A DNA stretch of 57,787 nucleotides, taken from positions 1 through 57,787 of IMG/VR virus record IMGVR_UViG_3300017763_000019; one strand, given 5' to 3'. The notes under the pieces were generated by a model, which ran no database searches, was not told the origin of the DNA, and worked only from the letters and a program-made list of their open reading frames with translations. The DNA is from a virus. Taxonomy: Duplodnaviria > Caudoviricetes. Positions 34,470 through 55,495 of this stretch are shown piece by piece (within the stretch, counting starts at the first letter, position 1; each line of letters starts with the position of its first letter). The position numbers and the translations under genes were made by a program.

Positions 34470-34501
34470 ATTTTATATAGAAATATTTGTAAGGAGTGTA
34501 A

Positions 34502-35644: not shown

Positions 35645-35695
35645 TGGTATTATATAGTTATGAAAAAGTATTAGTAGTTGTAGATATTCGTGGTA

Positions 35696-35725: not shown

Positions 35726-35754
35726 ATGTTAAAGATTGAAAATGGAATTGAAAA

Positions 35755-36549
35755 ATGATTAAGATAATTTCAGGTTGGTCCAATCCGGGTGGTTCAACAA
35801 CAGCGTTTATAAACTTATGTAATCTATTTAATGAGAACGGGTATGATTGTACATTCTACGGACCACATGATTGGCACTTAGATAAGTGTAAGAGTGGAAA
35901 TTTTCAGGATATCAATTTGAAAAAGAAGGATGTACTTATATATCACTTTTTAGATATCTTTAAAACAAGACCTCCTGTAAAGAAATTTGTACTAAGTTTA
36001 CACGAAAAGGACTTGTACAATCTGAATGTTAAAGAACATAATATGTTTGATACAATACACTTCCTAAACGACAAACACATTGAATGGCATGGTGGTAAAG
36101 ACCAATTTAAAAACTACTTTATAAGTCCTAACGTAGTAGATAATCTAATGCCTTCACCAAAAAAAGACTTGAAAATTGGTGGAGTAATTGGTACGGTTGA
36201 TTATAACAAACAGACACATAAATCTATTGAACGAGCTTTGAATGATGGTTGTGAACAGGTTCATGTCTATGGTAATATAACAGACCAAACCTACTATCAG
36301 AAATATGTTAGTAAGTATCATATGTATGAGAATGTTCATTTTTCCGGATTTGCTGAGGACAAACAAGCTATGTATGATAGTGTGACAGATGTTTATCAGG
36401 ATTCGCTAAGTGAAACTTGGGGATATATTAAAGTGGAATGTGATTTAACTAATACTAACTACCACGGAAATGATTCTATAAAGGATAATTTTGTTAGTAT
36501 GGGTAGTAAAGGAATACTTGAGAAATGGGTAAAGGAACTTGAATTATGA
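35755..36549 (+). CDS. Glycosyltransferase, GT-B (GT4-like)
   Basis: PGGS..F, IGTVDYNKQTH, VHFSGF, SETWGYIKVE (Ex7E). Confidence 0.75.
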   Translation: MIKIISGWSNPGGSTTAFINLCNLFNENGYDCTFYGPHDWHLDKCKSGNFQDINLKKKDVLIYHFLDIFKTRPPVKKFVLSLHEKDLYNLNVKEHNMFDTIHFLNDKHIEWHGGKDQFKNYFISPNVVDNLMPSPKKDLKIGGVIGTVDYNKQTHKSIERALNDGCEQVHVYGNITDQTYYQKYVSKYHMYENVHFSGFAEDKQAMYDSVTDVYQDSLSETWGYIKVECDLTNTNYHGNDSIKDNFVSMGSKGILEKWVKELEL

Positions 36550-37340
36550 TATCGGTTGTAATGTCTTATTTTAATAGGAAACCACAATTAAGGGCTACAT
36601 TGAAAAGTATTGATATTTCAGGGATGAAAGATTTGGAAATTATCATTGTGGATGATTGTTCTGATTTGGAACACAAACTGGATAAGGACTTTTTAAACGA
36701 GTTTAAGGATTTGAAAATTAATGTTATAGAAATGAATCCAGAAAAGAAATGGTATAAAAATCCTTGTATTCCATATAATGTTGGTATAGCAGCTGTAACA
36801 GGTGATGTAACAGTATTACAGAATCCTGAGTGTATGCATTTTGGAGACATTCTAACAGAAATAGATAACAATTTACAGGAAAATGAATATATTTCGTTTC
36901 CAACATACTCATTAAGTAAAGATCAAACTGACACAATATTAAATTTGGAATTTGATAAGAACTTTCATGGTAATGTAGTAGAATGTGTAAGTCCAATTTC
37001 AAGTTCACCTGCCAACCACTACGCCGAAGGATGGTATAATCATTCAACGATAAAACCATTATTTTATCATTTTTGTTGTGCGGTAAATACTAAACATTTA
37101 AAAGAAATGGGAGGTTTTGATGAAAGGTATGCTGAAGGTATATCATATGATGACGACGAACTTGTTATTAGATTGAAAAGAAAAGGTTTGAAAATGTTTA
37201 TACCTATGTCACCAATTGTTTTTCATTTATTTCACGAAAAGTTTATGTTTAGGGATGGAAATTTTATGGAGTATGTATATAAAAATATGGCATTATTGGA
37301 AGTGACAAAGAAAGAAGAGGGGTGGAAAGTAAATGAATAA
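36546..37340 (+). CDS. Glycosyltransferase GT2
   Basis: ISVVMSYFNR, IIIVDDCS, GGFDERY...YDDDE. Confidence 0.88.
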   Translation: MISVVMSYFNRKPQLRATLKSIDISGMKDLEIIIVDDCSDLEHKLDKDFLNEFKDLKINVIEMNPEKKWYKNPCIPYNVGIAAVTGDVTVLQNPECMHFGDILTEIDNNLQENEYISFPTYSLSKDQTDTILNLEFDKNFHGNVVECVSPISSSPANHYAEGWYNHSTIKPLFYHFCCAVNTKHLKEMGGFDERYAEGISYDDDELVIRLKRKGLKMFIPMSPIVFHLFHEKFMFRDGNFMEYVYKNMALLEVTKKEEGWKVNE

Positions 37341-38454
37341 GCTTAAAGTAATGACAATAGTTGGTACTAGACCAGAGTTGATTAGACTGTCTTGTATTTT
37401 AAAAGAATTGGAAAAGTATGTTGAGAGTGTTTTAGTACATACTGGGCAAAACTATGACTATGAGTTAAACGAAATATTTTTTGATGATTTGGACATTACT
37501 AAACCAAAGTATTATTTTGATATAAAGACTACATCAGTAGCAACTGCGTATTCAGATGTTTTGTTGAACACTGAAAAGATTCTAACTAAGGAAAAACCTG
37601 ACGCTATTATGATTTTGGGTGACACTAACAGTGCAATATCAGCACTTATCGCAAGACGTATGAAAATACCTATATATCATTTAGAGGCTGGGAATAGAAG
37701 TTTTGATGATAACATACCAGAGGAAATTAATAGAAGGGTTATTGACCATATAAGTGATTTCAACTTGGCTTATACTGAACACTCAAGAAGAAATTTGCTC
37801 AACGAGGGTTGTCATCCAAGAGATACTTTTGTTATAGGTTCACCTTTACGTGAAGTATACAATCAATATAAGACTAAGATCGAACATTCTAAGGTTCTTA
37901 AACAGTATGATTTGGAAAAGGGTAATTACTTTCTAGTAAGTACACATCGAGAAGAAAATGTGGATAGTGAGGAAAAGCTAAGGGATATTATATGTAGTAT
38001 AAATGCTGTCTCCAAAAAGTTTGATAAGAAAGTAATTTTTAGTTTACATCCAAGAACAAAAAAACGCTTAGAAAGTATTGAAATTGATACAAAAAATATT
38101 ATATTTACTAAACCATTGTCGTATACGGATTATTGTAATTTACAAACAAATTCATTTTGTGTACTGTCTGACAGTGGTACTATTAGTGAGGAATCGAGTA
38201 TCATGAATTTTCCAGCAGTAACTATTAGAAATAGTATGGAACGACCTGAAGCACTGGATGCTGGGTCTATTGTTTTGTCTGGAATTAAAAAGGATGCTGT
38301 TTTAACATCCGTAAATATTGTTACTCAAAATTTTAATAAAAGAGAATGTCCTCATGATTATATAAGTGATAATGTTTCAAACAAAGTTATTAGTTTAATT
38401 GTGGGTACTTGTGGGTTAAGGGATAAGTGGAAGGGGATTGAAGTTGAAAAATAA
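37333..38454 (+). CDS. Non-hydrolysing UDP-HexNAc 2-epimerase (FnlC/WbjD/QnlB type)
   Basis: GTRPELIRLS, HTGQNYDYELNEIFF, GDTNS, HLEAGNRS, PEEINR, SDSGTISEES, ERPE. Confidence 0.9.
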   Translation: MNKLKVMTIVGTRPELIRLSCILKELEKYVESVLVHTGQNYDYELNEIFFDDLDITKPKYYFDIKTTSVATAYSDVLLNTEKILTKEKPDAIMILGDTNSAISALIARRMKIPIYHLEAGNRSFDDNIPEEINRRVIDHISDFNLAYTEHSRRNLLNEGCHPRDTFVIGSPLREVYNQYKTKIEHSKVLKQYDLEKGNYFLVSTHREENVDSEEKLRDIICSINAVSKKFDKKVIFSLHPRTKKRLESIEIDTKNIIFTKPLSYTDYCNLQTNSFCVLSDSGTISEESSIMNFPAVTIRNSMERPEALDAGSIVLSGIKKDAVLTSVNIVTQNFNKRECPHDYISDNVSNKVISLIVGTCGLRDKWKGIEVEK

Positions 38455-39370
38455 AAAGATATTTATAACAGGTGGTGCTGGCTTTTTGGGTAGTAATCTT
38501 GTAAGAAGATTTTATGATGAGAACGAAATAACTGTTTATAGTAGAGATGAAGCTAAACATTATTATTTAAAGAAACAGTTTCCAAAAATACGATGTATTA
38601 TTGGTGATGTCCGTGATTATGATAATATGAAGAAGAGTTCTGAAGGACATGACATTGGAATTTTTACAGCAAGTCTAAAACAGATTGGTGTGGTGGATCA
38701 GAATGTTAATGAAAGTGTTAAAATTATTATTGATGGTGCGTTGAATAGTAGACGTATTGCTGAAGAACACAACTTTGAATCCGCTTGTTTTATATCAACT
38801 GATAAGAGTCGTTCAGCAACAACCTTGTATGGTGCTATGAAGTTTGTGGCTGGTGAATCATTTATTGTAAATAGTGATGTGACAAAAACTAGATTGAGTA
38901 CTGCACTATATGGTAATGTTACCAATTCAACTGGATCTATAATTCCTTTAATATGGGACTCGATTAGGCGTAAGTATGAACTGACTTTATTTTCAAAAGA
39001 AATGACACGCTTTATAATTGACATTGAGGACGCAATGGATTTGGTTGAAGTTGCTTTGAACTATGATGGATATAATGTTATACCAAAAATTAAATCAATT
39101 AGAATTAGCGACTTGTTTGAATTGTATGAAGAAGAATTTGGTTTGTGTTATAATCATGGTGTACCTAGAATTTCTGAGAAGTTACATGAGATTATGATTT
39201 CCTCTGAGGAAGTGCCTAGAACAAGTGCTGACAACAACCATTACTTCATGCATTATAAAGATGTGTGTGAAGGTGTGAGCTTTTCAAACAATGAGTATTC
39301 TAGTAAGGACTGTATAATGAGTAAGGAAGAGTTAAAAGATATGTTAAAAAAGAATAATTGGTATGAATAA
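38438..39370 (+). CDS. UDP-GlcNAc 4,6-dehydratase(/5-epimerase), FnlA/PseB-like; TTG start
   Basis: TGGAGFLG, YSRDEAK, IGDVRD, ISTDKS, LYGAMK, YGNV..STGSIIP, MTRF, EKLHE. Confidence 0.88.
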   Translation: MKLKNKKIFITGGAGFLGSNLVRRFYDENEITVYSRDEAKHYYLKKQFPKIRCIIGDVRDYDNMKKSSEGHDIGIFTASLKQIGVVDQNVNESVKIIIDGALNSRRIAEEHNFESACFISTDKSRSATTLYGAMKFVAGESFIVNSDVTKTRLSTALYGNVTNSTGSIIPLIWDSIRRKYELTLFSKEMTRFIIDIEDAMDLVEVALNYDGYNVIPKIKSIRISDLFELYEEEFGLCYNHGVPRISEKLHEIMISSEEVPRTSADNNHYFMHYKDVCEGVSFSNNEYSSKDCIMSKEELKDMLKKNNWYE

Positions 39371-40151
39371 AGTACTTGTGTTTGGTTCCAATGGTATGTT
39401 GGGTAGATATGTTGTTAAATATTTATCTAACTTTTTTGAAGTTAGTAGTGTGACAAGAAATGATTTGGATTTAACAAATTATGGTTTGGAAGATTTGGAA
39501 TTAGTTGTTGGTACCCATGATGTTGTCATTAATGCCGCTGGTTTGATAAAACAACGAAGTCCGAGTAATTATGATATGGTTAAGGTTAATTCATTGTTTC
39601 CAATAGAACTAGCAGATTTGTGTGAAATGACAGGTAAGAAACTCATACACATTTCAACGGATTGTGTATATTCAGGAACCATAGGGAAGTATGATGAGAA
39701 CGCACTACACGATGCTCTAGACGCTTATGGAAAGACAAAGTCTTTAGGTGAACCAGAAAACGCTACTGTGGTTAGGGCATCCATTATAGGTGAGGAACAA
39801 TCAAACAAACATTCTTTCATTGAATGGGTTAAGACTAGAAAAGATAGTACTGCTGATGGATATGTAAATCATCTATGGAATGGTATAACTTGTTTGCAGT
39901 TTGCAAAAATATGTAGGGATATTATTATCAACAATCATTACTGGATGGGAGTTAGACATATTGTATCTGATACGGTTTCAAAATATGATATGGTTAAATA
40001 TACAAATGAAACTTTTGATTTGAACATACAAGTGAATGAAGTGGAAGCAGATACTGTAATTGATAGAACTCTATCATCCAACTTTGGATATTTCTTTGAT
40101 ATACCAAGTGTACAGAAACAAATAGAAGAGTTGAAAGGTTTTGAATTATAA
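39363..40151 (+). CDS. RmlD-like NDP-4-keto-6-deoxysugar reductase
   Basis: GSNGMLG, INAAG, HISTDCVYSG, YGKTK. Confidence 0.88.
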   Translation: MNKVLVFGSNGMLGRYVVKYLSNFFEVSSVTRNDLDLTNYGLEDLELVVGTHDVVINAAGLIKQRSPSNYDMVKVNSLFPIELADLCEMTGKKLIHISTDCVYSGTIGKYDENALHDALDAYGKTKSLGEPENATVVRASIIGEEQSNKHSFIEWVKTRKDSTADGYVNHLWNGITCLQFAKICRDIIINNHYWMGVRHIVSDTVSKYDMVKYTNETFDLNIQVNEVEADTVIDRTLSSNFGYFFDIPSVQKQIEELKGFEL

Positions 40152-40153
40152 TG

Positions 40154-40182
40154 TTGACGAGTAGTAATGATATTAATATATT
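40154..40182 (+). promoter_or_regulatory. Sigma70-type promoter
   Basis: TTGACG-N17-TATATT. Confidence 0.65.
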
Positions 40183-40211
40183 TACTGGTATTAAAAAGTT
40201 GGAGTTACAAA

Positions 40212-41000
40212 ATGAAAATAGTAGCATTTTTACAATTATACAATGAATTTGAAAAAGGTAATTTAATTAGGTGTTTGGAAAATTGTAAACAGTGGTCGGA
40301 TGAAATAGTTATTTATGATGATTGTTCAGATGATGGAAGCAATCTAATATATAAAGAATATACTGATCATGTGATATATGGAAAGGAACGAAAGTTTACT
40401 TCGGAACTTGCACATAAAAAAGAATTGTTGAAACTTGCACTATCTTTAAATCCTGATTGGATTGGTTGGATTGATGGAGATGTAGTATTTGACAAGGAGT
40501 GTACCGAAGGTAAGTTAAGGCTTCATGCCGAATATGGCTCTTTACACAATATTGATGCTTGGGCTTTCCATAATATTAATATGTGGAGAGATCCTTCATG
40601 GTACAGACTAGACAATCAATTCAACACATTAAACCATATTTGTTTTTGGCGAAATAATGGTAAACTACATTATGTTGAAGAAGAAGGTTTACATAAACAT
40701 CAGTTTCCACGAGGGTTAGATAAAATTGAGATGTCGCCCAATAAGATATTACATTATGGGTTTGCATCATATAACAACATAATCAATAAATATTTGACAT
40801 ATAAATCTTATGGGCAAAGTGGTTATACATTGGATAGATTGATTGATGAAACTTCTTCATTTGACTTGGTTAAAGTACCGAAAGAGTTTTTTCCAATAGA
40901 AAATATTCCTACTGATTACGATGTGTCTAGAAGACCTATTCCATTAACATACAATGAGGTTAGAAATTATGAGTCGTGGGAAAAATATAAAAATGTCTAA
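40212..41000 (+). CDS. Glycosyltransferase GT2-like
   Basis: Start moved to ATG 40212 (GGAG RBS); YDDCSDDGS, WIDGD, ILHYG. Confidence 0.82.
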   Translation: MKIVAFLQLYNEFEKGNLIRCLENCKQWSDEIVIYDDCSDDGSNLIYKEYTDHVIYGKERKFTSELAHKKELLKLALSLNPDWIGWIDGDVVFDKECTEGKLRLHAEYGSLHNIDAWAFHNINMWRDPSWYRLDNQFNTLNHICFWRNNGKLHYVEEEGLHKHQFPRGLDKIEMSPNKILHYGFASYNNIINKYLTYKSYGQSGYTLDRLIDETSSFDLVKVPKEFFPIENIPTDYDVSRRPIPLTYNEVRNYESWEKYKNV

Positions 41001-41724
41001 GAGTATAGAAATAGTTTCGTTAATTTTTAAATCTAAAGATTATTTAAATTTTATATACAACCAACTTAAAAAAGAATGTAATAAAGTAGATGGGTGGGAT
41101 GTGGGTATTAGGATTGTTGCTAATGATGCGACAGAAGAGGTGTTGGATCATTTAAAAACATTAGATATACCATATACTATTTACAATGACGATATTCCAA
41201 ATGATTATTATTTGAATAGAGTTTATAGATGTTATAACCATTCTGTTGAAACTAGTGAGTATGACAATGTATGTTTAGTTAATTCTGATATGGCATTTTC
41301 GGAAAATTGGTTGGATAATTTATTAAAACATCATGATGGTAATAATATACCTTGTAGTAGATTGATTGAAAGTGGTAAAATGCCAAGTGGTTTGCATGGT
41401 GTTTCTAATAATTTTGGTAAAACTCCACTAACATTTAGTGATGTTGATTTTGATGAGTATGTTAATATAATAAAACAACCTTTTGTTCATGAAAGTGGAT
41501 TATATATGCCTTGTATTTTTGAAAGAAAACGATTTATTGAAAGTGGTATGTATCCTGAAGGTAACTTATATAAAGATGGTATTGGTAAGTTTGGAAGTGA
41601 ATTTGTAATGTCTGGTGACAAGTATTACTTTGAAGAAGTTCTATTGAAAAAATATAATATGAAACACATAACTGTTTTTGATTCAATAGTGTATCATATT
41701 CAGGAGGGTGAGAAAGATGAGTAA
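40993..41724 (+). CDS. Probable GT-A glycosyltransferase
   Basis: CLVNSDMAFSENWL, GD..F and SIVYH; context. Confidence 0.7.
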   Translation: MSKSIEIVSLIFKSKDYLNFIYNQLKKECNKVDGWDVGIRIVANDATEEVLDHLKTLDIPYTIYNDDIPNDYYLNRVYRCYNHSVETSEYDNVCLVNSDMAFSENWLDNLLKHHDGNNIPCSRLIESGKMPSGLHGVSNNFGKTPLTFSDVDFDEYVNIIKQPFVHESGLYMPCIFERKRFIESGMYPEGNLYKDGIGKFGSEFVMSGDKYYFEEVLLKKYNMKHITVFDSIVYHIQEGEKDE

Positions 41725-42640
41725 AGGATGGTTAGTAAATGATTGTTTGACTTGTATACCAGGAACTAAAACTTTTTGGCATGACCTGTTAGAGAATGTT
41801 GATGGTTTAGTTGATAAGTGTAATGGTCATACTCCATATAATATTTTACCCACAAGAATTGAAAGTGAGTTACAGGTGGAACAACCAGATTATATAATTC
41901 GTAACGCTACTTTCTTTAGAAATATGAATACTTTAGTTCCAACAATTTCTCTATTACAAGATGTAGTAGTTGGTCGTGACGTACAGATAGATACTTGTAA
42001 TAGATCAACTGTTACGGTTTTTAATTCACAATACACTAAATCACTTTACCCAGAAATTACAAATTCTGTTGTGATTCCTTTAGGTACGGATTTTGAAAAG
42101 TTTAAACCTTTAGATAATGTTAATGAACTTAAACAGAAGTATGGTATAAATGATAATACTATATTATATGTGGGTAGTTCAACAGTATATCCTAAAGGTT
42201 TTGATATGGTAGAGTCCATTATAGACAACACTGAGTATAAATATGTTTTAATTATGAAAGATGATTATCAATCATCAAATCCTAGAGTAAAAGTTTTTAA
42301 CAGAATCACTCAAGACGAAATTGTTGAGATTACAAACTGTTGTAGTATGTTATTATGTACATCAAAAGAGGAGACTTTACATTTAGGTGGTGTTGAATCG
42401 GCTGCTTGTGGGTTACCAATTATTACTACAAATGTGGGTATATATCCAAGTATTAATGGTGATGGGTGGGGTCATATATGTGACTCGTTGGAAATGTTCT
42501 TACAAACAATAGAGTTGGTTTTTAAGAATGTCGATAGTTATAATCCAAGAGAAGTATTTTTGAAAAATGGTTTGGATAAGAACTCGTCAATGGAGAGTTG
42601 GAATATGTTAATTGATAAACTCTTAATGAAGGAAAAGTAA
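41717..42640 (+). CDS. Glycosyltransferase GT4-like
   Basis: VIPLGTD, KGFD, EETLHLGGVESAACGLPIITTNVG. Confidence 0.85.
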   Translation: MSKGWLVNDCLTCIPGTKTFWHDLLENVDGLVDKCNGHTPYNILPTRIESELQVEQPDYIIRNATFFRNMNTLVPTISLLQDVVVGRDVQIDTCNRSTVTVFNSQYTKSLYPEITNSVVIPLGTDFEKFKPLDNVNELKQKYGINDNTILYVGSSTVYPKGFDMVESIIDNTEYKYVLIMKDDYQSSNPRVKVFNRITQDEIVEITNCCSMLLCTSKEETLHLGGVESAACGLPIITTNVGIYPSINGDGWGHICDSLEMFLQTIELVFKNVDSYNPREVFLKNGLDKNSSMESWNMLIDKLLMKEK

Positions 42641-43393
42641 ATGTTGGAACATATATATAGCGATGAGTATTTCAATTGGACAAAATTTGAAAGTATTGTT
42701 AAAAGTAAAAAGTGTGAGTATGAGAATGCTAGTCCATTCCCTCACACTTTACTTGACAGTTTATTTACTGATAGTGTACTTGATGATGTGTTGAATTGTT
42801 TCCCACCAATCGAATCTGATGAATGGGATAGAAGAAATGATATTGGTGTACAAGTTAAACTAAGAACTAAATGGAAAGACGAAAGAGACATTCCACCAAA
42901 AGTTCTAAGAGTAATACAAATATTACAATCAGGAAGGTTTGTTCGTTTGTTATCTGAGTATACTGGGATAGATGGTTTAATGCCTGATTACTGGTATGGT
43001 GGTGGTGGACTAAATCAAATACTACCAGGTGGAGAATTGGCTGTTCATGTTGATGGTACACTTAATGATGAGATAAAAATGTATCGTAGAGTAAATCTAA
43101 TTGTATTTCTCAATAAGGATTGGGAAGAAGAATATGGTGGACATTTGGAATTTTGGGATTCAGAAAAGAAATGGTGTGTTAAAAAATTAACACCATCATT
43201 TAATAAAATTGCTATTTTTAATACAAGTGATTTGACATATCATGGTCATCCATACCCTTTAACTTGTCCTGAGGATCGTTCGAGGAAGTCATTGATCTTA
43301 TATTATTACACAGCAACTAGACCAGAATCCGAAATTAAGTTTGGTAAACAGCACCGCGCTTTATTTTCAACACGAGAAGAATTGGGGATATAA
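42641..43393 (+). CDS. 2OG-Fe(II) oxygenase (prolyl-hydroxylase-like)
   Basis: PFPH, HVD, W..EYGGHLEFW, YHGHP, RKS. Confidence 0.9.
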   Translation: MLEHIYSDEYFNWTKFESIVKSKKCEYENASPFPHTLLDSLFTDSVLDDVLNCFPPIESDEWDRRNDIGVQVKLRTKWKDERDIPPKVLRVIQILQSGRFVRLLSEYTGIDGLMPDYWYGGGGLNQILPGGELAVHVDGTLNDEIKMYRRVNLIVFLNKDWEEEYGGHLEFWDSEKKWCVKKLTPSFNKIAIFNTSDLTYHGHPYPLTCPEDRSRKSLILYYYTATRPESEIKFGKQHRALFSTREELGI

Positions 43394-43398
43394 AAAAG

Positions 43399-44043
43399 AT
43401 GGAAAAAGGAATAAACACTAATATATTTGTAAAACACTTTAAAGATAATATAGAGGGTTATCCTATTAATATATTTGAAATTGGTGCGGAGGATGCGAGA
43501 GACTCAGTAATATTTTATAACGAATTTAACAGATCTAATATATACGCATTTGAAGCTAATGTAGACACTTTTAATAATAATAAATCAAATATTAATAATA
43601 TAAACTATATAAACTGTGCAATTTCAGACGTAGAACATGATACTATTTTTTATAAAAAGACCGAACAGTATCCGGGTATATCGTCTTTACGCAATAGAGG
43701 TCAGCAATACCCGGGTGTAACTGTTACGGTTAAAACGAAGCGTATAGATACTTTTTGTAATGAGAATGATATAACAAGTATTGATATATGTAAGGTTGAT
43801 GTTGAAGGATGTACATATGAAGCATTAAAAAGTTTTGGTGATATGTTAAGTAAAACAAAAATATTTCATATTGAAACTGAAACATCACAACACTTTGAAA
43901 ACCAAATTGTAGAGTCTGAGGTTTTTGATTTATTGAAACAACACAATTTTGAAATGTTACAGCACGAACATTGTTGCTTAAATCAATATGATTCTGTGTG
44001 GATAAATAAGATGTATAAAAAGGATGTAACAAGAAATGATTAA
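43399..44043 (+). CDS. FkbM-family methyltransferase
   Basis: FEIGA, YAFEAN, IDICKVDVEG. Confidence 0.88.
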   Translation: MEKGINTNIFVKHFKDNIEGYPINIFEIGAEDARDSVIFYNEFNRSNIYAFEANVDTFNNNKSNINNINYINCAISDVEHDTIFYKKTEQYPGISSLRNRGQQYPGVTVTVKTKRIDTFCNENDITSIDICKVDVEGCTYEALKSFGDMLSKTKIFHIETETSQHFENQIVESEVFDLLKQHNFEMLQHEHCCLNQYDSVWINKMYKKDVTRND

Positions 44044-45290: not shown

Positions 45291-45575
45291 ATGAAATTTA
45301 GAGAATTAATAGAAGAGTTTGAATCCACATTTGATGGAAAGATTGGTAAAAGTGACCAAAAATATTTTGAAACAGACTTTGTCTCGGACTACACTATTGA
45401 CTACGATGACGATATTCCATCAGCAATATTTAGAAGGGATAAAGAAAAAATTTCAAGTGAAGATATAAACACAGCAAAGGAATGGTGTGAGTGGTGGAAC
45501 TCAACAAATGACATTAAAGTGATGGTGTTGTCTACTGACCTGGGTGACCTTGGTGTTAATTTAGCTGTAAAATGA
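45291..45575 (+). CDS. Small putative internal head protein
   Basis: N-terminus MKFRELIEE is CTS-like. Confidence 0.55.
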   Translation: MKFRELIEEFESTFDGKIGKSDQKYFETDFVSDYTIDYDDDIPSAIFRRDKEKISSEDINTAKEWCEWWNSTNDIKVMVLSTDLGDLGVNLAVK

Positions 45576-45659: not shown

Positions 45660-46061
45660 ATGGAAGAATTGGATATGGAGGGGATGATACAAGTCGAGCC
45701 CCTCGTAGATTTAAAAATTATAAAAGAAACATTATCAAGAATGGGTATTGCAAACAAAAAAAGAAAAGTTCTTTATCCAACTTGTTACATCTACCAAAAC
45801 TTTGACGAATTTTATATTGTACATTTTAAAGAGTTGTTTTTAATAACACGACCGGATGGATATAATAACCTTTGTCAAGAAGATGTAGAAAGAAAGAATT
45901 CAATACTATTTTGTTTAAAAACTTGGGGATTAATTGATGTGGAAGAAATGACCATACAACCACACGACAAGTATATCTTTGTATTGCCACACGAAGAAAA
46001 ACATGAATGGCAAATAGAACACAAATTTAATATGAATAGTATCCAGCAGGTAGTAGAATGA
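45660..46061 (+). CDS. regA: Translational repressor RegA
   Basis: KETLSRMGIANKKRKVLYPTCYI...YIVHFKELF, WGLI, EKHEW. Confidence 0.93.
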   Translation: MEELDMEGMIQVEPLVDLKIIKETLSRMGIANKKRKVLYPTCYIYQNFDEFYIVHFKELFLITRPDGYNNLCQEDVERKNSILFCLKTWGLIDVEEMTIQPHDKYIFVLPHEEKHEWQIEHKFNMNSIQQVVE

Positions 46062-46312: not shown

Positions 46313-46320
46313 TATAAATA
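46313..46320 (+). promoter_or_regulatory. T4-type late promoter for the NTase operon
   Basis: TATAAATA, then a GAGG RBS. Confidence 0.7.
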
Positions 46321-46350
46321 GTAATATTATAGCGAACATAACGAGGTTTT

Positions 46351-47334
46351 ATGAAAAATTTTTTAAACGAGGGTGGTAATGTTTTTAAAGGTAAAACGGA
46401 TCGTATCAAAAAAGAAGATATTGATCCTACTTTAAACAGTTACTTCGCAGAACTCAAAAGAGTCTTCCCAAAAAAGACTAACATCTTTTCAACTGAATAT
46501 TTTCGTCCGATTGGTTCGGTTGGAAAAAAAGATTATAGTGGTGACATTGACTTAGCAATTGATGTAAGTATGTTCCTTGACAAAGATATGTCTGAAGAAT
46601 CTATGAAGGAATGGGATATTGAACCATCATTTGTGGATGAGCGTTTTGTAAAATTACGCAAACGTGCTCGTACAGCAACGGATGAACAATTAAGAATAAA
46701 AGCATTCTTACAAGAACTGTCTGTTCGTATAAATGAAAAAAGTCAAAACATCTATATTGATGAAAAGAAAGTAGGACCTGGAACAGTCTTTGGTTTATAC
46801 CCACAACTTACACCAGAAGGTGAAGACTTAGACGTTGGTGTCCAAATTGATTGGATGATTGGTAACCTTGAGTGGTTAGAATTTAGTTATTACTCAAACA
46901 CATATTCCGGTGTTGTAAAAGGTTTACATCGTACGCAGTTAATGTTAAGTTTATTTGTAAACAAAGGTCTTAGTTTTAACCATACAAACGGTGTTAAAGA
47001 TAAAGATACTGGTGAAGTCCTAGCAACAAGTCCTAATGAGGCTATAGCGTTGCTTAACACTATATATAACTTCGATATAACAAGAACTACACTAGAAGAC
47101 TACTTTAAATTACATGCCTTTATAAAAGCTAATATAAGTTCAGAAGATTATGATAGTTTAATTGATATCTATTTAAAAATACTCGACAAGACAAGAGCCG
47201 ACATACCTGAAGACTTACAGAAAGAATGGATGTTAAGAAAAGATAGTTTAGGTCTTACAGGTAAATTCTTACCTGATGATAGTAAGTTAAAACAAAATGA
47301 AAGTTTTGTAAGTTATCTTAAAGGAGTTATTTAA
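46351..47334 (+). CDS. Pol-beta-superfamily nucleotidyltransferase with CTS-like N-terminus
   Basis: IGSVGKKDYSGDIDLAI (hGS..DxD) plus VQID third Asp; MKNFLNE/G leader. Confidence 0.8.
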   Translation: MKNFLNEGGNVFKGKTDRIKKEDIDPTLNSYFAELKRVFPKKTNIFSTEYFRPIGSVGKKDYSGDIDLAIDVSMFLDKDMSEESMKEWDIEPSFVDERFVKLRKRARTATDEQLRIKAFLQELSVRINEKSQNIYIDEKKVGPGTVFGLYPQLTPEGEDLDVGVQIDWMIGNLEWLEFSYYSNTYSGVVKGLHRTQLMLSLFVNKGLSFNHTNGVKDKDTGEVLATSPNEAIALLNTIYNFDITRTTLEDYFKLHAFIKANISSEDYDSLIDIYLKILDKTRADIPEDLQKEWMLRKDSLGLTGKFLPDDSKLKQNESFVSYLKGVI

Positions 47335-47335
47335 T

Positions 47336-48262
47336 ATGTCGGGGGTTAGTGGTTCTGATAGAATTAGCAGAGAACATTTTAGTGTTGTCCTAAATGACTA
47401 TAAAAAACTCATTTCGCAATATCCAGGTTTTAAAAGTATAGAACCATCAGGTTCATTTAAATCGGATATGTCAAAAGATAGTTTTGGTGATATGGATTTA
47501 ATCCTACACATTGAAAGTGATAAAGATAAGAAATCACTTAAACTAGATTTAGTAAAATGGTTTAAAGGAATGTCCGACAATGTTGTAGTACCTTTCACAA
47601 GTGAAAAGTATAAAGGTCGTAAGGTATATAATAGTGGTGAAATTGTTACTATTAATTACCCACAAAAAATTGATGATCTCACAGTACAGATAGATAACAT
47701 TATAGCATTGGACGAAGTTGAAGCATCTTTCAAAGGCGACTTCTTAGATATGCCAGCACAGAAACAAGGTTTGGTCTTAGGTTTAATGAAAGTTATACTT
47801 ATTGAAAACACTCCTGAAGTAGTGTTTGAAAAACTAGGAGTTGATTTACCAACTGAGTTATCCGAAGTAGAAGAGTACGAGTTTAATTTAAGTAGTATGG
47901 AAATACAATTACGAAAAGTTACTTACATAGAACCTGGATCATTTAAACAAAAAAGTCGTGAAGTTGTATGGAGTAGTCGTAATTGGAATGAGTTGAAAAA
48001 GATATTGTGGCAATATGATTTGGACCAGAGTTTTGAAGAACTGTTGGTTGAGATTAAAAAACAATTAAAGAATCCTCGTAGTGCAAGACGAATGGCTGGT
48101 GTGTTCAGTTCTATGATCAGTGTTAAGTCGGGCGAGTTAGGTACACCAAAAGGTGATGCTAAAAAAGATGCATTGGATAAAGTACAAAGTATGTTTGGTG
48201 AATCATTCAGTACATTTAAAAGTTATTATTTAGAAATAAAAAGAGGTCGTGATGAACTTTAA
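47336..48262 (+). CDS. Second Pol-beta-superfamily nucleotidyltransferase
   Basis: SGSFKSDMSKDSFGDMDLIL plus VQID; shares the DRIxxE N-terminal motif with the upstream gene. Confidence 0.8.
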   Translation: MSGVSGSDRISREHFSVVLNDYKKLISQYPGFKSIEPSGSFKSDMSKDSFGDMDLILHIESDKDKKSLKLDLVKWFKGMSDNVVVPFTSEKYKGRKVYNSGEIVTINYPQKIDDLTVQIDNIIALDEVEASFKGDFLDMPAQKQGLVLGLMKVILIENTPEVVFEKLGVDLPTELSEVEEYEFNLSSMEIQLRKVTYIEPGSFKQKSREVVWSSRNWNELKKILWQYDLDQSFEELLVEIKKQLKNPRSARRMAGVFSSMISVKSGELGTPKGDAKKDALDKVQSMFGESFSTFKSYYLEIKRGRDEL

Positions 48263-49019
48263 TGATTATAAAAAGTTAATATTAGAAGGTAAACAAGAGG
48301 ACGCGTTTGTTGTGTATGCTGGAAAGTTTCAACCATTCCATATCAATCACTACAGAACATATCAATACTTAGTTGAGCGTTTCGGAAAAGAACGTGTCTA
48401 CATTGCTACTGCAGATACGCCCAAGAAACCAAAGCCGGGTGAACATATACTAGACTTTAAAGAAAAGAAAGAAATAATTACAACTATGTTTAAAGACATA
48501 CCAGCAGACAATGTTGTTCATGAACAAAATGTTTATAACCCCAAAGCAATTAAAAGTAAATTTTCAGAAGACACTCCATACATTGCTATCGTTGGAAAGA
48601 AAGATGCTGAACGACTTTCAAGTGGTAACTACTTCTCTTTCTTAAAGGATCAGGAAGACGATAATTTAAAAGGGTGGAGTGAAAAGGGTTATGTAGAACT
48701 TGCACCACAACAAAATATACAGTACGCAGGTGAAGTTGTAACAGGTACACTTATTAGGGATATCCTAAGCGGTACTGATGAAATTTCTAAGACAGAGATA
48801 CTATCACTAATATATACAGAACTTGATGACTATACAGTAAACTTTATTAAACGAAAGTTTAAAGGTGTTGAAACTAAAGAGGAGCAAATGGGTATGACAC
48901 AGTCTTCTGAAGAAGTTGATAAAAATACCAGTGAACTTTCAGGATCTAAGACAATAAACGTAGTAACGGATAAGGGTAAGATTGTACAAAGGACGGTAGT
49001 ACCAGAAGACAAACTCTAG
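48249..49019 (+). CDS. HIGH-superfamily (cytidylyl/NMN-adenylyl-transferase-like) nucleotidyltransferase with CTS-like N-terminus
   Basis: VYAGKFQPFHINH (HxGH variant), VGKKD, VTGTLIR; MNFNDYKKLILE/G leader. Confidence 0.8.
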   Translation: MMNFNDYKKLILEGKQEDAFVVYAGKFQPFHINHYRTYQYLVERFGKERVYIATADTPKKPKPGEHILDFKEKKEIITTMFKDIPADNVVHEQNVYNPKAIKSKFSEDTPYIAIVGKKDAERLSSGNYFSFLKDQEDDNLKGWSEKGYVELAPQQNIQYAGEVVTGTLIRDILSGTDEISKTEILSLIYTELDDYTVNFIKRKFKGVETKEEQMGMTQSSEEVDKNTSELSGSKTINVVTDKGKIVQRTVVPEDKL

Positions 49020-49031
49020 TAGAAATAACAG

Positions 49032-49060
49032 TTGACAGAATAAGACATAATTATTATTAT
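49032..49060 (+). promoter_or_regulatory. Sigma70-type promoter
   Basis: TTGACA-N17-TATTAT. Confidence 0.7.
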
Positions 49061-49061
49061 T

Positions 49062-49093
49062 AGTGTAGGTATAGTTTGTACCTGCACTTTTTT
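49062..49093 (+). terminator. Terminator closing the NTase operon
   Basis: AGTGTAGGTA-TAGTTTG-TACCTGCACT-TTTTT. Confidence 0.7.
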
Positions 49094-49102
49094 GTTGGTC
49101 AT

Positions 49103-49723
49103 ATGGAAAATATTACAGTAGAGATATATAGTGAAGGAATGGAACTAGCAGAAGTCAAAAGAACAATTAGTAAATTTCAAAAAAAGAATAAGTTAGATTT
49201 TAAAGTAAAGATATTAATTGATTGGTTTAGTGAGTTCGCTGGATATTATTATTTTGGGGAAGACGAGGTGAAACTATTTGTCAATCCAATAAACTGTCAA
49301 TACTTTGATAGGACGTTTGGATATACAGATGATAATTCTTTTGTTGGAGTAATGACACATGAGTTCTCCCATTGTATTGATGACAAGTATGGACTACAAG
49401 CAGACTATCGTGTTTATACTAAAGCTAATGGTAGATTAATGTTAAATGATTATGTTAGAAGAACTAACATAAGTGAAGAGATTGCTGAACTGGTTTGTCT
49501 GTATATTAACAACCCATACTTATTAAAACATATAGATGTTCCAAGATACAAGTGGTTGTCAAAATACTTCAAGTCTACCACACCTTGTTCGGAAAAGAAT
49601 TTTAAGGAAAGATGGAAAGCTTGGGATGGTGAGACTAGAAAGCTTTGTTGGAAGGATTGGGGAATTAAAGTAGTAAAACAGAATATCTATCTTAGGAAGC
49701 GAAAAAGAGTTGACAAGAAGTGA
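49103..49723 (+). CDS. Zincin-like metallopeptidase
   Basis: THEFSHCID (HExxH) plus downstream EEIAE. Confidence 0.7.
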   Translation: MENITVEIYSEGMELAEVKRTISKFQKKNKLDFKVKILIDWFSEFAGYYYFGEDEVKLFVNPINCQYFDRTFGYTDDNSFVGVMTHEFSHCIDDKYGLQADYRVYTKANGRLMLNDYVRRTNISEEIAELVCLYINNPYLLKHIDVPRYKWLSKYFKSTTPCSEKNFKERWKAWDGETRKLCWKDWGIKVVKQNIYLRKRKRVDKK

Positions 49724-50091: not shown

Positions 50092-50589
50092 ATGTTAAAA
50101 GAAATTACCGCAACAGGTTTTAAAGGAGCCTCCCAAGGTGGATTGGCTGCAGGATTTAGTAGAGACATAACAACAAGTGGTTTTGCACCAAAGGGTTATA
50201 GAATACCAGGTGGTGAAGATCCAGGTCTGAAATATTTAGGTTTAGAAGAACATGAGAGTGATAAGATTGGTACTGTTGTTGAGAGTAATCTTTTTAAGGC
50301 AGATGCTGTCCTATTCTTTTGTAGTGAAATAGAATCAGAAATGGAAAAGAAGATATTGGAGATGGTAGACATTCTTAACATTCCAATCTTAAAAGTAAAT
50401 ATTACCAAACCCTTGGACAAAAGAATTGTAGTCAACTTCATTGTACATAATAAAGTTAAAATATTACACATCACAGGTAAGACAGATACACATAGTAACA
50501 AGACAGTCTATTCATTTGTTAGGAACTATGTAATAACTATTATTGATGAGTTACGACTAGACTACTCCTTTAGAAATAGTATTTATTAA
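50092..50589 (+). CDS. Divergent SLOG-fold protein (cpYpsA / 'MoCo carrier' family)
   Basis: KEITATGFKGASQGGL, TSGFAPKGY, N...ADAVLFF, ILHITG. Confidence 0.65.
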   Translation: MLKEITATGFKGASQGGLAAGFSRDITTSGFAPKGYRIPGGEDPGLKYLGLEEHESDKIGTVVESNLFKADAVLFFCSEIESEMEKKILEMVDILNIPILKVNITKPLDKRIVVNFIVHNKVKILHITGKTDTHSNKTVYSFVRNYVITIIDELRLDYSFRNSIY

Positions 50590-54189: not shown

Positions 54190-54450
54190 ATGAGATTTAC
54201 AGATTTTATATCAAAGGACAAAGTAATTTCAGAATCGGGTTTTGATAATAGATTTGAATATATTTCAAACACATTTCAAACCGCGATTGAAAGTATGATG
54301 GATGAACAAGAATTTGTGGGTAAAGCAAACACTAAACAAATACAAAAGTTAAACACTTTACTCACACAGACTTTTGAGAAATGGGCTCAAGAGTTTGAAA
54401 AAGAACTAAACGATATAGACAGACAAGAGTCTGACGAAGGAGAAAAATAG
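54190..54450 (+). CDS. Putative internal head protein
   Basis: MRFTDFISKDKVISE/S leader; acidic and helical. Confidence 0.6.
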   Translation: MRFTDFISKDKVISESGFDNRFEYISNTFQTAIESMMDEQEFVGKANTKQIQKLNTLLTQTFEKWAQEFEKELNDIDRQESDEGEK

Positions 54451-54451
54451 T

Positions 54452-54736
54452 ATGAGTACTAAATTTAAACAGTATGTAACAGAAGCTGAAGCTACTGGAA
54501 GAATCACATCACAGGTAGTAAAAGTAACAGAAGAATTTGTTGCTAAAGTAGAATCACTCACAAAAGAATCCGAGGACATTTATAGACCAGGTGGAGATGA
54601 AGCTACTTCTTATCGTGATAAGTACACAGCTGTTCGTGACCAATTGGTTTTGGTACAGAAAGCTTGTGAACGTCTTATTAATGTTGCAGAAGACGCAGAT
54701 CGTGTCCTTGATACAGCAAAGACACAACAAGCATAA
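54452..54736 (+). CDS. Putative internal head protein
   Basis: MSTKFKQYVTE/A leader. Confidence 0.6.
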   Translation: MSTKFKQYVTEAEATGRITSQVVKVTEEFVAKVESLTKESEDIYRPGGDEATSYRDKYTAVRDQLVLVQKACERLINVAEDADRVLDTAKTQQA

Positions 54737-54996
54737 TGAGTCTAAGAAGATTTATAAGAGAGGCGAATGGTGAGGTTATAGAACCTCTACCTGTTGTTGA
54801 AGCTACTCCACTCGATGTTAAGTTGGGTGATATAGAGGAACACTTCGAAAACTACACAGGTGCCATTGCCGATTTTATAATGACCCTCAAAGAAAATGGA
54901 TTGAAGAGTGATGATGAGTTTAAAGATTCCATTGATCAGTTGATGGAAGTACATGAAGAACTTAAAAATAATTTGTGGAAACATAATAAAGAATAG
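54736..54996 (+). CDS. Putative internal head protein
   Basis: MSLRRFIRE/A leader. Confidence 0.6.
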   Translation: MSLRRFIREANGEVIEPLPVVEATPLDVKLGDIEEHFENYTGAIADFIMTLKENGLKSDDEFKDSIDQLMEVHEELKNNLWKHNKE

Positions 54997-55022: not shown

Positions 55023-55054
55023 CTATGAAGAAAGTATTTAAAAGGAGAAAAATA

Positions 55055-55495
55055 ATGTCTGATTATAGAGAGTTAATTAATGAAGCGATTAAATTGGGCT
55101 CACGAAGACTTGTAGAAGAAGAGGAAGAAACAGCACCAATTGAAAACTTAGAAGATGGAACTTCGTCGGATGTTATTGGTGTTTCAAAACAACTAACAGA
55201 TGCATTTGACAACTACCTCGATCTACTGGCAAGTTCAATTTCCGATTTGGAAGATGTTGCGGCTAATGATCCAGAAGGAATGGAATATATTATTGACCTA
55301 ACAACTAAAGGTCAAAAAATGGAAACAGCGTTTTCAAGATTAAAAGAAGTTCTACTTAAAGCACCTAAAAAACTTGGTGGACCAGTAGACGACCCTTCAA
55401 CAGAAGTTGCACCGGTACCTGTTGAAACCGAACCCGAACCTGAAACTGTAAGAAGTGATGGATTTGGATCAGTAGAGGATGTAGAAGAAATCTAA
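55055..55495 (+). CDS. Putative internal head protein
   Basis: ATG 55055 after AAGGAG; MSDYRELINEA shares DYRELINEA with ORF 1892. Confidence 0.65.
   Translation: MSDYRELINEAIKLGSRRLVEEEEETAPIENLEDGTSSDVIGVSKQLTDAFDNYLDLLASSISDLEDVAANDPEGMEYIIDLTTKGQKMETAFSRLKEVLLKAPKKLGGPVDDPSTEVAPVPVETEPEPETVRSDGFGSVEDVEEI

What the first reader, a model, noticed from the sequence alone, without database searches (positions are those of the whole stretch)
46313..49093. Late operon of three nucleotidyltransferases that appear to be capsid-packaged: candidate virion-delivered nucleotidylation system
Seen: one TATAAATA promoter and one terminator bound three tightly coupled genes. Two are paralogous Pol-beta-fold NTases (both with DRIxxE, hGS..GDxD and VQID) and the third is a HIGH-family NTase (GKFQPFHINH). 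Genes 1 and 3 begin with MKNFLNE/G and MNFNDYKKLILE/G. Genes 1 and 2 end in similar tails (ESFVSYLK, ESFSTFKSYYLE). Known: T4 internal proteins carry MKTYQEFIAE-type capsid targeting sequences that gp21 cleaves after (I/L)xE, and T4 injects the enzyme Alt this way. Inference: these enzymes are injected with the DNA and act before phage gene expression. Possible roles are AMPylation of host or defence proteins, tRNA 3'-end repair by a split enzyme pair, decoy cyclic-nucleotide synthesis, or NAD+ rebuilding by the NMNAT-like subunit. I know of no characterised system of this form.
Basis: partly seen in the sequence, partly recalled or inferred. Interest (0 to 1): 0.88.

Follow-up and report, generated by a model that had tools for sequence, protein, structure and literature searches.

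The report
Capsid-targeted PolX-like enzyme trio
A T4-like phage operon encodes two enzymes shaped like family-X DNA polymerases and a small adenylyltransferase, each carrying the short peptide tag that T4 uses to load proteins into its head, so they are probably injected with the DNA, though their job there is unknown.

Summary
A TATAAATA late-type promoter (46313) and a strong terminator (49062-49088) bound three coupled genes: g1 46351-47334, g2 47336-48262 and g3 48252-49019.

g1 and g2 have no Pfam or PHROG family. Their confident AlphaFold models match family-X DNA polymerases best, over palm plus thumb and almost all of ASFV Pol X. Other Pol-beta-fold nucleotidyltransferases match the palm only. 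g3 is a small HIGH-motif adenylyltransferase. It matches PPAT and archaeal NMNAT equally well, so the NMNAT label is not established.

The module is widespread in uncultured T4-like phages. g2 follows g1 in 73 of 75 loci, and g1+g2, g2+g3 and g1+g3 fusions all exist.

The capsid-targeting idea gains independent support:
- 97 of 99 g1 homologues with an N-terminal extension end it in [LIVMF]-x-E, right before an invariant GGNVF.
- The same motif sits at every fusion junction.
- Lineages without the g1 tag also lack the g2 tail and the g3 extension.
- Related contigs encode a gp21-type prohead protease.

Packaging is therefore likely (about 0.65) but unproven. The biochemical role is inferred only. 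My best guess is polymerase or end-processing work on nucleic acid, possibly repair of the incoming genome.

The parts
46313..46320 (+). TATAAATA, the T4-type late-promoter motif, 38 nt upstream of g1
   Evidence: 23 copies against 12.2 expected, 21 on the + strand; the same motif lies 28-81 nt before the sheath, baseplate and tail-tube genes and the gp15-like gene.
46351..46371 (+). g1 N-terminal 7-residue predicted propeptide (MKNFLNE), ending L-N-E just before the invariant GGNVF
   Evidence: 97 of 99 extended homologues end the extension in [LIVMF]xE. 19 homologues start M-GGNVF.
46351..47334 (+). g1: PolX-like nucleotidyltransferase, 327 aa. Catalytic G55-S56, D65, D67 and D167 are invariant.
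47302..47331 (+). g1 C-terminal amphipathic tail (SFVSYLKGVI), present only in the closest relatives
   Evidence: relatives P0003, P0011, P0013 and P0017 carry similar tails after L-x-E.
47336..48262 (+). g2: second PolX-like nucleotidyltransferase, 308 aa. G39-S40, D52, D54 and D120 are invariant, and the N-terminus is the invariant M-SG..G...SR.
48203..48259 (+). g2 C-terminal tail after the conserved F-G-E289 (SFSTFKSYYLE...). It resembles a targeting peptide and holds a second Y-L-E.
   Evidence: 106 of 112 homologues have [FLIVM]xE at this spot; 65 have 6-30-residue tails, 62 of them aromatic-x-x-hydrophobic; the tail is absent in 15 of 16 loci whose g1 lacks the N-terminal tag.
48252..48287 (+). 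g3 N-terminal 12-residue predicted propeptide (MNFNDYKKLILE)
   Evidence: it resembles the N-termini MDYRELINE and MSDYRELINE of two other late-promoter genes in this window; about half of the stand-alone g3 homologues carry such an extension ending hxE.
48252..49019 (+). g3: HIGH-superfamily adenylyltransferase of the PPAT/NMNAT type, 255 aa (GKFQPFHINH at residues 24-33, R169)
   Evidence: PF01467, 22.7 bits against a cut-off of 21. PPAT E 3.9e-9, archaeal NMNAT E 6.2e-9; far below the equivalog cut-offs.
49062..49097 (+). Intrinsic terminator (12-pair stem, 3-nt loop, T run) closing the operon

Best explanation
This is a three-gene late operon of a T4-like myophage. It encodes two paralogous enzymes with the palm-plus-thumb architecture of family-X DNA polymerases (g1, g2) and a small HIGH-motif adenylyltransferase (g3).

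Shown:
- The genes, the promoter motif and the terminator.
- The fold similarity and the intact catalytic carboxylates in both paralogues.
- The near-obligate g1-g2 pairing and the fusions among all three genes.
- The conserved hxE motifs.

Inferred:
- Each polypeptide carries a T4-type capsid-targeting peptide, N-terminal on g1 and g3 and C-terminal on g2.
- A gp21-type prohead protease cuts after [LIVF]-x-E inside the prohead. This releases mature enzymes that begin exactly at GGNVF (g1) and SG..G (g2).
- The enzymes are ejected with the DNA and act before phage genes are expressed.
- Because the propeptide abuts a conserved N-terminal segment, cleavage may also switch the enzymes on.

Most speculative step (about one in three): the pair acts as a polymerase or terminal transferase on nucleic-acid 3' ends or gaps, for example repairing or end-processing the incoming genome. 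g3 would supply or attach an adenylylated cofactor or group.
For: Operon anatomy.

Fold:
- The AF2 models have pLDDT 89.3 and 91.0.
- All 50 listed Foldseek PDB hits for each model are Pol beta, lambda or mu.
- In BFVD, giant-virus PolX proteins appear among the hits.
- The g2 part of one relative passes the Pfam DNA_pol_B_palm cut-off, 25.7 bits against 25.
- The catalytic residues are invariant.

Functional linkage:
- g2 lies downstream of g1 in 73 of 75 loci that have room, and is adjacent in 62.
- g3 lies within 6 kb in 42 of 68 loci.
- There are 9 g1+g2 and 19 g2+g3 fusions among 80 loci, and a g1+HIGH+metallopeptidase fusion, P0304.

Targeting and cleavage:
- 97 of 99 g1 extensions end in [LIVMF]xE, against a background of 1.2% per position.
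- The 10-residue class has an aromatic residue at positions 4 and 7, L/I at 8 and E at 10. The review PMC9026906 names these same positions as the targeting and processing determinants of the T4 IPIII targeting sequence (passages read).
- g1+g2 fusion junctions read [LM]-x-E then SG..G, exactly where stand-alone g2 begins M-SG..G.
- g2-g3 linkers are short amphipathic peptides flanked by two hxE sites.
- All 44 tagged loci with a separate g2 have at least 37 residues after the landmark. 15 of 16 untagged loci have 30 or fewer, and their g3 lacks an extension.
- Peptidase_S77 is present in 4 of 5 long tagged contigs and in phage immuto.
- The gp23-type capsid proteins of those contigs carry several LxE sites in their N-terminal 45 residues.
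- Two unrelated late genes of the window share the N-terminus DYRELINEA.
- T4 Alt has a 7-residue N-propeptide and is also processed at its C-terminus (review).

DNA context in relatives: DnaB in 20 loci, primase in 11, ATP-dependent ligase in 17, and UvdE UV-endonuclease (E 3e-36) in 10.
Against: Packaging:
- There is no virion or expression data.
- The window is a fragment estimated at 24% complete, without head or protease genes.
- g1's own propeptide is only 7 residues.
- The residue three before the cut at the g2 site is F in 71 of 106 homologues. None of the passages I read reports that for gp21.
- A C-terminal or internal targeting peptide is inferred, not known.
- 17 of 80 loci, many of the 50%-identity representatives and the only cultured relative, immuto (stop codon just upstream of M-GGNVF), lack the tag. 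Packaging is therefore not intrinsic to the family.
- TATAAATA precedes g1 in only 4 of the 80 loci with a g1 ORF, the window included.
- In relatives the module sits among replication genes, not head genes.

PolX likeness:
- TM-scores are only 0.31-0.41.
- Neither window protein has a Pfam hit at E <= 1, and profile searches of PDB sequences find nothing for g1.
- No 8-kDa lyase domain or helix-hairpin-helix fingers are present.

Repair reading:
- The ligase-UvdE neighbourhood belongs to essentially one clade.
- g3 is missing from 26 of 68 loci.
Confidence: 0.5

Rival explanations
1. The enzymes are cytoplasmic replication or repair accessory factors and are never packaged. On this reading the N-terminal extensions, tails and linkers are flexible spacers, or are processed by another protease such as the HExxH domains fused in some relatives. 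The late promoter simply times expression.
For: - Immuto and 17 of 80 loci lack the tag.
- Many distant representatives start at GGNVF.
- Neighbours in relatives are DnaB, primase, ligase, UvdE and an exonuclease.
- HExxH or DUF6782 metallopeptidase-like domains are fused to the module.
- Polyvalent proteins are proposed to be cut by zincin-like peptidases (PMC5512222, passages read).
Against: - A spacer would not keep [LIVMF]xE in 97 of 99 cases while varying from 4 to 135 residues.
- A spacer would not reappear at every fusion junction.
- A spacer would not be gained or lost together on three proteins.
- The motif is the documented cleavage signature of gp21-type proteases, which act inside proheads.
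Confidence: 0.22
2. The system is a small-molecule nucleotide system aimed at host defence. g3 would rebuild NAD+ as an NMNAT. g1 and g2 would make or cap a signalling nucleotide, acting as a decoy or sponge against Thoeris, CBASS or similar systems.
For: - g3 has the GRFQPxHxGH-type motif of archaeal/NadM NMNATs.
- The immuto fusion is annotated as NadR-type NMNAT and lies about 5 kb from an NAD synthetase gene.
- A cpYpsA SLOG-domain gene lies two genes downstream in the window.
- Phage NAD+ salvage and packaged ADP-ribose-related enzymes are known themes (PMC9503650, passages read).
- CD-NTases appear among the lower fold hits.
Against: - g3 matches PPAT as well as NMNAT and scores 12-18 bits against NMNAT equivalog cut-offs of 112-449.
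- CD-NTases, OAS and SAS enzymes match only the roughly 100-residue palm, while PolX matches palm plus thumb.
- According to PMC9503650, every phage with NadM also has NadV. I ran no dedicated search for NadV, and none appeared in the parts of the window and loci I annotated.
- g3 is absent from 26 of 68 loci.
Confidence: 0.13
3. g1 and g2 are template-independent RNA 3'-tailing enzymes, like TUTases or poly(A) polymerases. Injected with the DNA, they would mark host RNAs for decay or repair tRNA 3' ends.
Against: - These hits cover the palm only, about 100 residues.
- The thumb matches PolX.
- There are no tRNA genes in the window, and no RNA-repair genes appeared among the neighbours I annotated.
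Confidence: 0.08

Closest known systems
T4 Alt and internal proteins IPI-III (head-internal proteins targeted by a capsid targeting sequence, cut by gp21 and injected)
   Same: - Late expression.
- A short N-terminal propeptide with its determinants at positions 4, 7, 8 and 10.
- Cleavage after Glu.
- Alt has a 7-residue N-propeptide and is also trimmed at its C-terminus (review PMC9026906; PMC5694885).
- The cargo is an enzyme, as with Alt.
   Different: - The cargo is a different enzyme class: PolX-like nucleotidyltransferases and a HIGH adenylyltransferase, not an ADP-ribosyltransferase.
- The tags are also found at a C-terminus and between fused domains.
- Processing and packaging are only inferred here.
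Minimal family-X DNA polymerases (ASFV Pol X; the Pol beta 31-kDa palm-thumb)
   Same: - Palm with hGS, DxD and a third Asp, followed by a PolX-type thumb.
- No 8-kDa domain, as in ASFV Pol X.
   Different: - No sequence-level family membership.
- Low TM-scores.
- An extra C-terminal helical region.
- The proteins occur as an obligate pair of paralogues, both with intact active sites.
- The substrate is unknown.
- That ASFV Pol X serves base-excision repair is recalled from memory; no call checked it.
PPAT (CoaD) and archaeal/NadM-type NMNAT
   Same: A small (about 170-200 residue) Rossmann-like HIGH nucleotidyltransferase with the (H/T)xGH and SxTxxR motifs. The profile hits run the full length, E 4e-9 to 6e-9.
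   Different: - It scores below every curated equivalog cut-off, so the substrate cannot be assigned.
- It is fused or coupled to PolX-like proteins.
- It carries a predicted propeptide.
Polyvalent virion-delivered effector proteins (Iyer et al. 2017, PMC5512222)
   Same: Large multidomain fusions of up to 1549 aa combine enzymatic domains with HExxH peptidase-like, GNAT and DUF domains, and are predicted to be delivered with the DNA.
   Different: - That paper reports Pol-beta NTases only as minimal versions in conjugative elements, not in phages (passages read).
- Here the domains are PolX-like.
- Here the signals for separating the domains are gp21-type hxE sites.

Membership tests
Family X DNA polymerase | Pol-beta palm with hG[GS], DxD and a third catalytic Asp | tested here: met
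   g1 has G55-S56, D65, D67 and D167. g2 has G39-S40, D52, D54 and D120. All are invariant in 42 and 41 aligned sequences.
Family X DNA polymerase | PolX-type thumb (N-subdomain) directly after the palm | tested here: met
   Alignments run from about Pol beta residue 142 to 328-338 and cover 165 and 163 of 176 ASFV Pol X residues. PolX rows stand above the palm-only rows. This rests on predicted models.
Family X DNA polymerase | 8-kDa dRP-lyase domain and helix-hairpin-helix fingers | tested here: not met
   The models begin at the equivalent of Pol beta residue 142, so no such N-terminal domains exist. ASFV Pol X also lacks them, so they are not universal in the family.
Family X DNA polymerase | Sequence membership (Pfam DNA_pol_B_palm or DNA_pol_B_thumb) | tested here: not met
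   The window proteins have no Pfam family at E <= 1. 10 of 41 g2 relatives give sub-threshold palm hits. One relative passes, 25.7 bits against 25.
Family X DNA polymerase | Template-directed dNMP addition to a primer 3'-OH | not testable with these tools
   This needs a biochemical assay.
T4-type capsid-targeted internal head protein | Short terminal propeptide ending (L/I)-x-E, with hydrophobic residues at positions 4 and 7 | tested here: met
   g1 has MKNFLNE and g3 has MNFNDYKKLILE. Family-wide, 97 of 99 extensions fit, and the 10-residue class has F4, Y/F7, L/I8 and E10. The determinant positions come from the review.
T4-type capsid-targeted internal head protein | A gp21-type (Peptidase_S77) prohead protease in the same phage | tested here: inconclusive
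   It was not found in the window, which is a fragment without head genes. It is present in 4 of 5 long related tag-bearing contigs and in immuto.
T4-type capsid-targeted internal head protein | Presence of the processed protein in virions and its ejection into the host | not testable with these tools
   This needs virion mass spectrometry.
T4-type late gene | TATAAATA at about -10, with no -35 element needed | tested here: met
   The motif is at 46313-46320. It is enriched, strand-biased and placed before structural genes. The timing of transcription was not measured.
HIGH-superfamily nucleotidyltransferase (PF01467) | (H/T)xGH motif, a C-terminal SxTxxR-type motif and a Rossmann-like core | tested here: met
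   PF01467 scores 22.7 bits against a cut-off of 21. G24, P28, H33 and R169 are invariant. There are full-length profile matches to PPAT and NMNAT structures.
NMN adenylyltransferase (NadM, NadR, NadD) | A score above the curated equivalog cut-offs, or specific similarity over other HIGH adenylyltransferases | tested here: not met
   The best NCBIfam NMNAT or NaMNAT score is 17.5 bits against a cut-off of 112. PPAT (E 3.9e-9) ties with NMNAT (E 6.2e-9).

The most novel reading that the evidence does not exclude
The module is a virion-delivered first-aid kit for DNA. Two PolX-like enzymes and an adenylyltransferase are loaded into the head as inactive pro-forms. The prohead protease switches them on by exposing their exact N-termini. 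They are then injected with the genome to fill gaps or process ends of DNA damaged outside the host, for example by sunlight, before any phage gene is read. Untagged lineages would make the same kit inside the cell, next to UvdE and ligase.
Probability: 0.2. Interest if true: 0.9.

Novelty: new variant of a known kind. Interest (0 to 1): 0.74.

Why it matters
If the reading holds, it extends the T4 principle of tag, package, cleave and inject from Alt and the small internal proteins to a new enzyme class. It would show that the same tag can sit at a C-terminus or between fused domains, turning polyproteins into several injected enzymes.

It also gives a name and a testable activity to a large uncharacterised family. 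That family has 1718 clusters at 90% identity for g1 and 614 representatives at 50% identity. Nearly all come from uncultured aquatic T4-like phages, and none has a Pfam or PHROG family.

A packaged PolX-like polymerase pair would be, as far as my searches went, the first phage counterpart of the virion-borne repair polymerases of large eukaryotic DNA viruses.

The invariant mature N-termini, produced either by Met removal or by protease cleavage, make the prediction directly checkable by mass spectrometry.

Tried and rejected
- Sequence searches for known relatives of g1 and g2 gave nothing usable: Pfam and PHROGs, NCBIfam, and profiles against PDB sequences.
- blastn and tblastn against 50,697 phage records found only the four Flavobacterium phage immuto records.
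- g4 (49103-49723, HEFSH) as a fourth member: BLASTP against the immuto fusion gave E 4.8, and Pfam PhageMetallopep gave E 0.093. It also lies beyond the terminator, behind its own sigma-70-like promoter. I did not include it.
- A g1-g2 heterodimer: complex prediction gave no verdict (score 0.00, controls not run). This is evidence neither way.
- The ESM Atlas gave only leads: viral hypothetical clusters, DUF6267, and Pol beta palm and thumb at low shares.
- Literature. No paper mentions DUF6267. A search on PolX, family X, bacteriophage and virion found no phage-packaged PolX (listing and abstracts only). Searches on polyvalent proteins and nucleotidyltransferase and on immuto found no description of this module. 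These four searches are my only basis for calling it undescribed.
- The Atu_ph07 virion proteome could show whether a distant structural relative (BFVD hit, E 1.8e-11) is virion-borne.
- There are no tRNA genes in the window.
- I considered a sliding-clamp-binding role for the tails from recall only and dropped it, because the tails co-vary with the g1 N-terminal tag.
- I did not use the sequencing-run tools. Bulk reads from an uncultured phage cannot time expression.


Full report
**Setting.** The window is the whole of a 57.8-kb viral contig, estimated 24% complete. It has 33.5% G+C, and all long ORFs lie on the + strand. It belongs to a T4-like myophage:
- a gp15-like sheath stabiliser at 194-1030;
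- the large terminase, tail sheath and baseplate wedge;
- the tail tube, a RegA-like translational repressor at 45660-46061, and a dUTPase.

No tRNA genes are present.

**Observation.** The three ORFs, their motifs and their tight coupling are as described. TATAAATA occurs 23 times against 12.2 expected, and 21 copies are on the coding strand. 17 copies lie within 120 nt upstream of 15 gene starts, including structural genes. The copy at 46313, 38 nt before g1, is therefore a credible late promoter. A 12-pair hairpin with a T run at 49062-49088 closes the unit. The next gene has its own sigma-70-like promoter, matching 11 of 12 positions at 49032-49060. I leave that gene out of the operon.

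**What the proteins are.**

g1 and g2 match no Pfam, PHROG or NCBIfam family, and profile searches find no PDB sequence for their domains. By sequence they are barely recognisable paralogues (E 0.009; hhalign E 0.0064).

AlphaFold2 models built on alignments of 42 and 41 sequences are confident, with pLDDT 89.3 and 91.0:
- By Foldseek against the PDB, all 50 listed hits for each model are Pol beta, lambda or mu, with E 1e-5 to 2e-4 and TM 0.31-0.41.
- In BFVD the hits include giant-virus PolX proteins and a distant uncharacterised protein of Agrobacterium phage Atu_ph07.

Both proteins keep the hGS, DxD and third-Asp residues invariantly. They therefore work like minimal palm-plus-thumb PolX enzymes. 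I do not file them as members of the family, because sequence-level membership fails and the 8-kDa and fingers domains are absent.

g3 passes PF01467 narrowly, 22.7 bits against 21. A 12-sequence profile matches PPAT (E 3.9e-9) and archaeal NMNAT (E 6.2e-9) over their full length. It lies far below every equivalog cut-off. It is a PPAT/NMNAT-type adenylyltransferase of unassigned substrate.

**Distribution and linkage.**
- g1 has 1718 relatives at 90% clustering and g2 has 335. All are metagenomic hypothetical proteins.
- A g1 profile finds 614 representatives at 50% identity.
- The only cultured carrier is Flavobacterium phage immuto.
- I fetched 80 IMG/VR loci (some are near-duplicates). 75 have at least 300 nt downstream of g1. 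Of these, 73 have g2 within 2.6 kb on the same strand, and 62 have it within 60 nt.
- Of the 68 loci with at least 2 kb downstream, 67 have g2 and 42 have a HIGH nucleotidyltransferase within 6 kb.
- Nine loci fuse g1 to g2 and nineteen fuse g2 to g3. One representative fuses g1 directly to a HIGH domain and a DUF6782 metallopeptidase-like domain.
- Fusions reach 1122-1549 residues, with mostly unknown extra domains: DUF6321, DUF5661 and GNAT.
- The immuto protein is 907 residues and holds two HExxH motifs.

So g1 and g2 are an obligate pair, and g3 is a frequent but dispensable third member.

**Targeting and processing.** This is the strongest new evidence.
- Of 120 g1 homologues, 118 contain GGN[VI]F near the start. 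19 begin M-GGNVF. 99 carry an extension of 4-135 residues, and 97 of those end in [LIVMF]-x-E (L 65, I 25, V 7) immediately before GG. The background rate of that tripeptide is 1.2% per position.
- The common 10-residue class reads M-[LKI]-[TS]-F-[KR]-[QE]-[YF]-[LI]-T-E. The review of T4 head assembly states that the first 10 residues of IPIII form the capsid targeting sequence, that residues 4 and 7 govern targeting and residues 8 and 10 govern processing, that Alt has a 7-residue propeptide, and that Alt is also processed at its C-terminus (PMC9026906, passages read). PMC5694885 adds that cleavage follows Glu and that long propeptides hold extra sites (passages read).
- In the g1+g2 fusions the junction reads [LM]-x-E followed by SG..G, exactly where stand-alone g2 begins M-SG..G. 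Both mature N-termini are thus the same whether they are made by Met removal or by cleavage.
- After the g2 domain, 106 of 112 homologues have [FLIVM]-x-E (F 71, L 32). 65 then carry a 6-30-residue tail, and 62 of those tails are aromatic-x-x-hydrophobic. 13 of the 14 direct fusions to the HIGH domain have a second hxE at the end of the linker.
- The tags co-vary. All 44 loci with a tagged g1 and a separate g2 have at least 37 residues after the g2 landmark. 15 of 16 untagged loci have 30 or fewer, and their g3 starts directly at the first strand. These loci are related to one another, so the number of independent gain or loss events is smaller than these counts.
- A gp21-type Peptidase_S77 is encoded by 4 of 5 long tag-bearing contigs; the fifth is a 39%-complete fragment. 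Immuto encodes one too. The gp23-type capsid proteins of those contigs hold several LxE sites in their first 45 residues.
- Within the window itself, two unrelated genes behind TATAAATA motifs (1892-3643, and the ATG at 55055) share the N-terminus DYRELINEA. The g3 N-terminus resembles it (DYKKLILE). Three small genes at 54190-54996 start with similar peptides.

Together this makes cleavage at these sites by a prohead protease, and hence residence in the prohead, the most economical reading.

**Limits of the targeting argument.**
- The window lacks head genes.
- F at the position three residues before the cut is not documented in what I read.
- A C-terminal or internal targeting peptide has no tested precedent.
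- 17 of 80 loci, many distant representatives, and immuto lack the tag. In immuto a stop codon lies 5 codons upstream of M-GGNVF.
- TATAAATA precedes g1 in only 4 of the 80 loci with a g1 ORF, the window included.

**Function.** Nothing here shows an activity. Three points favour work on nucleic acid:
- The PolX-type thumb.
- The neighbours in relatives: DnaB in 20 loci, primase in 11, ATP-dependent ligase in 17, and primase plus exonuclease in immuto.
- One clade with the same-strand order ligase, UvdE UV-endonuclease (PF03851, E 3e-36), three unknown genes, then g1, g2 and g3.

This suggests gap filling or end processing, and for the tagged forms repair or protection of the entering genome. 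It rests on fold and on one clade's gene order, so I give it about one in three.

They are NAD+ rebuilding, cyclic-nucleotide decoys, tRNA repair and AMPylation.

**Comparison and novelty.** The delivery logic is that of T4 Alt and the internal proteins. The cargo resembles ASFV-type minimal PolX plus a PPAT/NMNAT-type enzyme. The large fusions resemble the polyvalent proteins of Iyer et al. 2017, who report Pol-beta nucleotidyltransferases only as minimal domains in conjugative elements. My searches found no description of this module. I rate it a new variant of a known kind, with high interest because of its breadth and because it can be tested directly.

Noticed in passing
window 1892-3643 and 55025-55495 (internal ATG at 55055): Two otherwise unrelated proteins (583 aa and about 146 aa) start with the same peptide, DYRELINEA. 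Each lies behind a TATAAATA motif (1860 and 55015). Neither has a Pfam hit, and the PHROG scan of the 583-aa protein, the only one of the two that I scanned there, also found nothing. They look like further capsid-targeted internal proteins.
   Followed up: partly
window 54190-54996 and 45291-45575: Four small genes (86-94 aa) begin with targeting-peptide-like sequences: MRFTDFISK...VISE, MSTKFKQYVTE, MSLRRFIRE and MKFRELIEE. A TATAAATA lies at 54162. They are candidate internal-protein genes.
   Followed up: partly
window 50092-50589: A circularly permuted YpsA SLOG-family protein (PF12694, E 1.1e-10) lies two genes downstream of the operon. [quoted passage not shown]
   Followed up: no
window 49032-49723: A strong sigma-70-like promoter (TTGACA, 17 nt, TATTAT) overlaps the start of the operon terminator. 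It precedes a 206-aa protein with an HEFSH motif, which gives only a weak PhageMetallopep hit (E 0.093). Metallopeptidase-like HExxH domains are fused to the module in relatives, but I could not show homology to this protein.
   Followed up: partly
L016, L038, L040, L047-L050, L053, L060, L061: One clade has a conserved same-strand order: ATP-dependent DNA ligase, small genes, UvdE, an unknown protein of about 315 aa, two small genes, then g1, g2, g3 and later an epimerase. In L047, L048, L053 and L060/L061 the ligase is split by a 299-aa ORF, and one ligase piece gives an intein-splicing hit (E 6e-7).
   Followed up: partly
P0056, P0077, P0101; L032 6611-7948: Some g1 homologues carry a roughly 130-residue N-terminal domain with an HELAH/HELVH motif. 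It sits between a targeting-peptide-like start and the hxE site before GGNVF, as if a small metallopeptidase-like protein were co-delivered as part of the propeptide.
   Followed up: no
23 and 17 of the related loci, 4-5 kb upstream of g1 (e.g. L007 3113-5386, L021 2971-3801): A 757-aa two-AAA+ ATP-dependent protease-type protein (phrog_4871, E 1e-245) and a full DnaJ (J domain plus C-terminal domain) recur near the module.
   Followed up: no
window 32018-44043: A long block of sugar-modifying genes (glycosyltransferase and nucleotide-sugar epimerase hits, then a methyltransferase) lies between the tail genes and the dUTPase. I did not analyse the 2193-aa ORF at 19741-26322.
   Followed up: no
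P0202: One g2 homologue is fused to an NADPH-dependent FMN reductase / flavodoxin-like domain (E 4.6e-13) instead of the HIGH nucleotidyltransferase.
   Followed up: no
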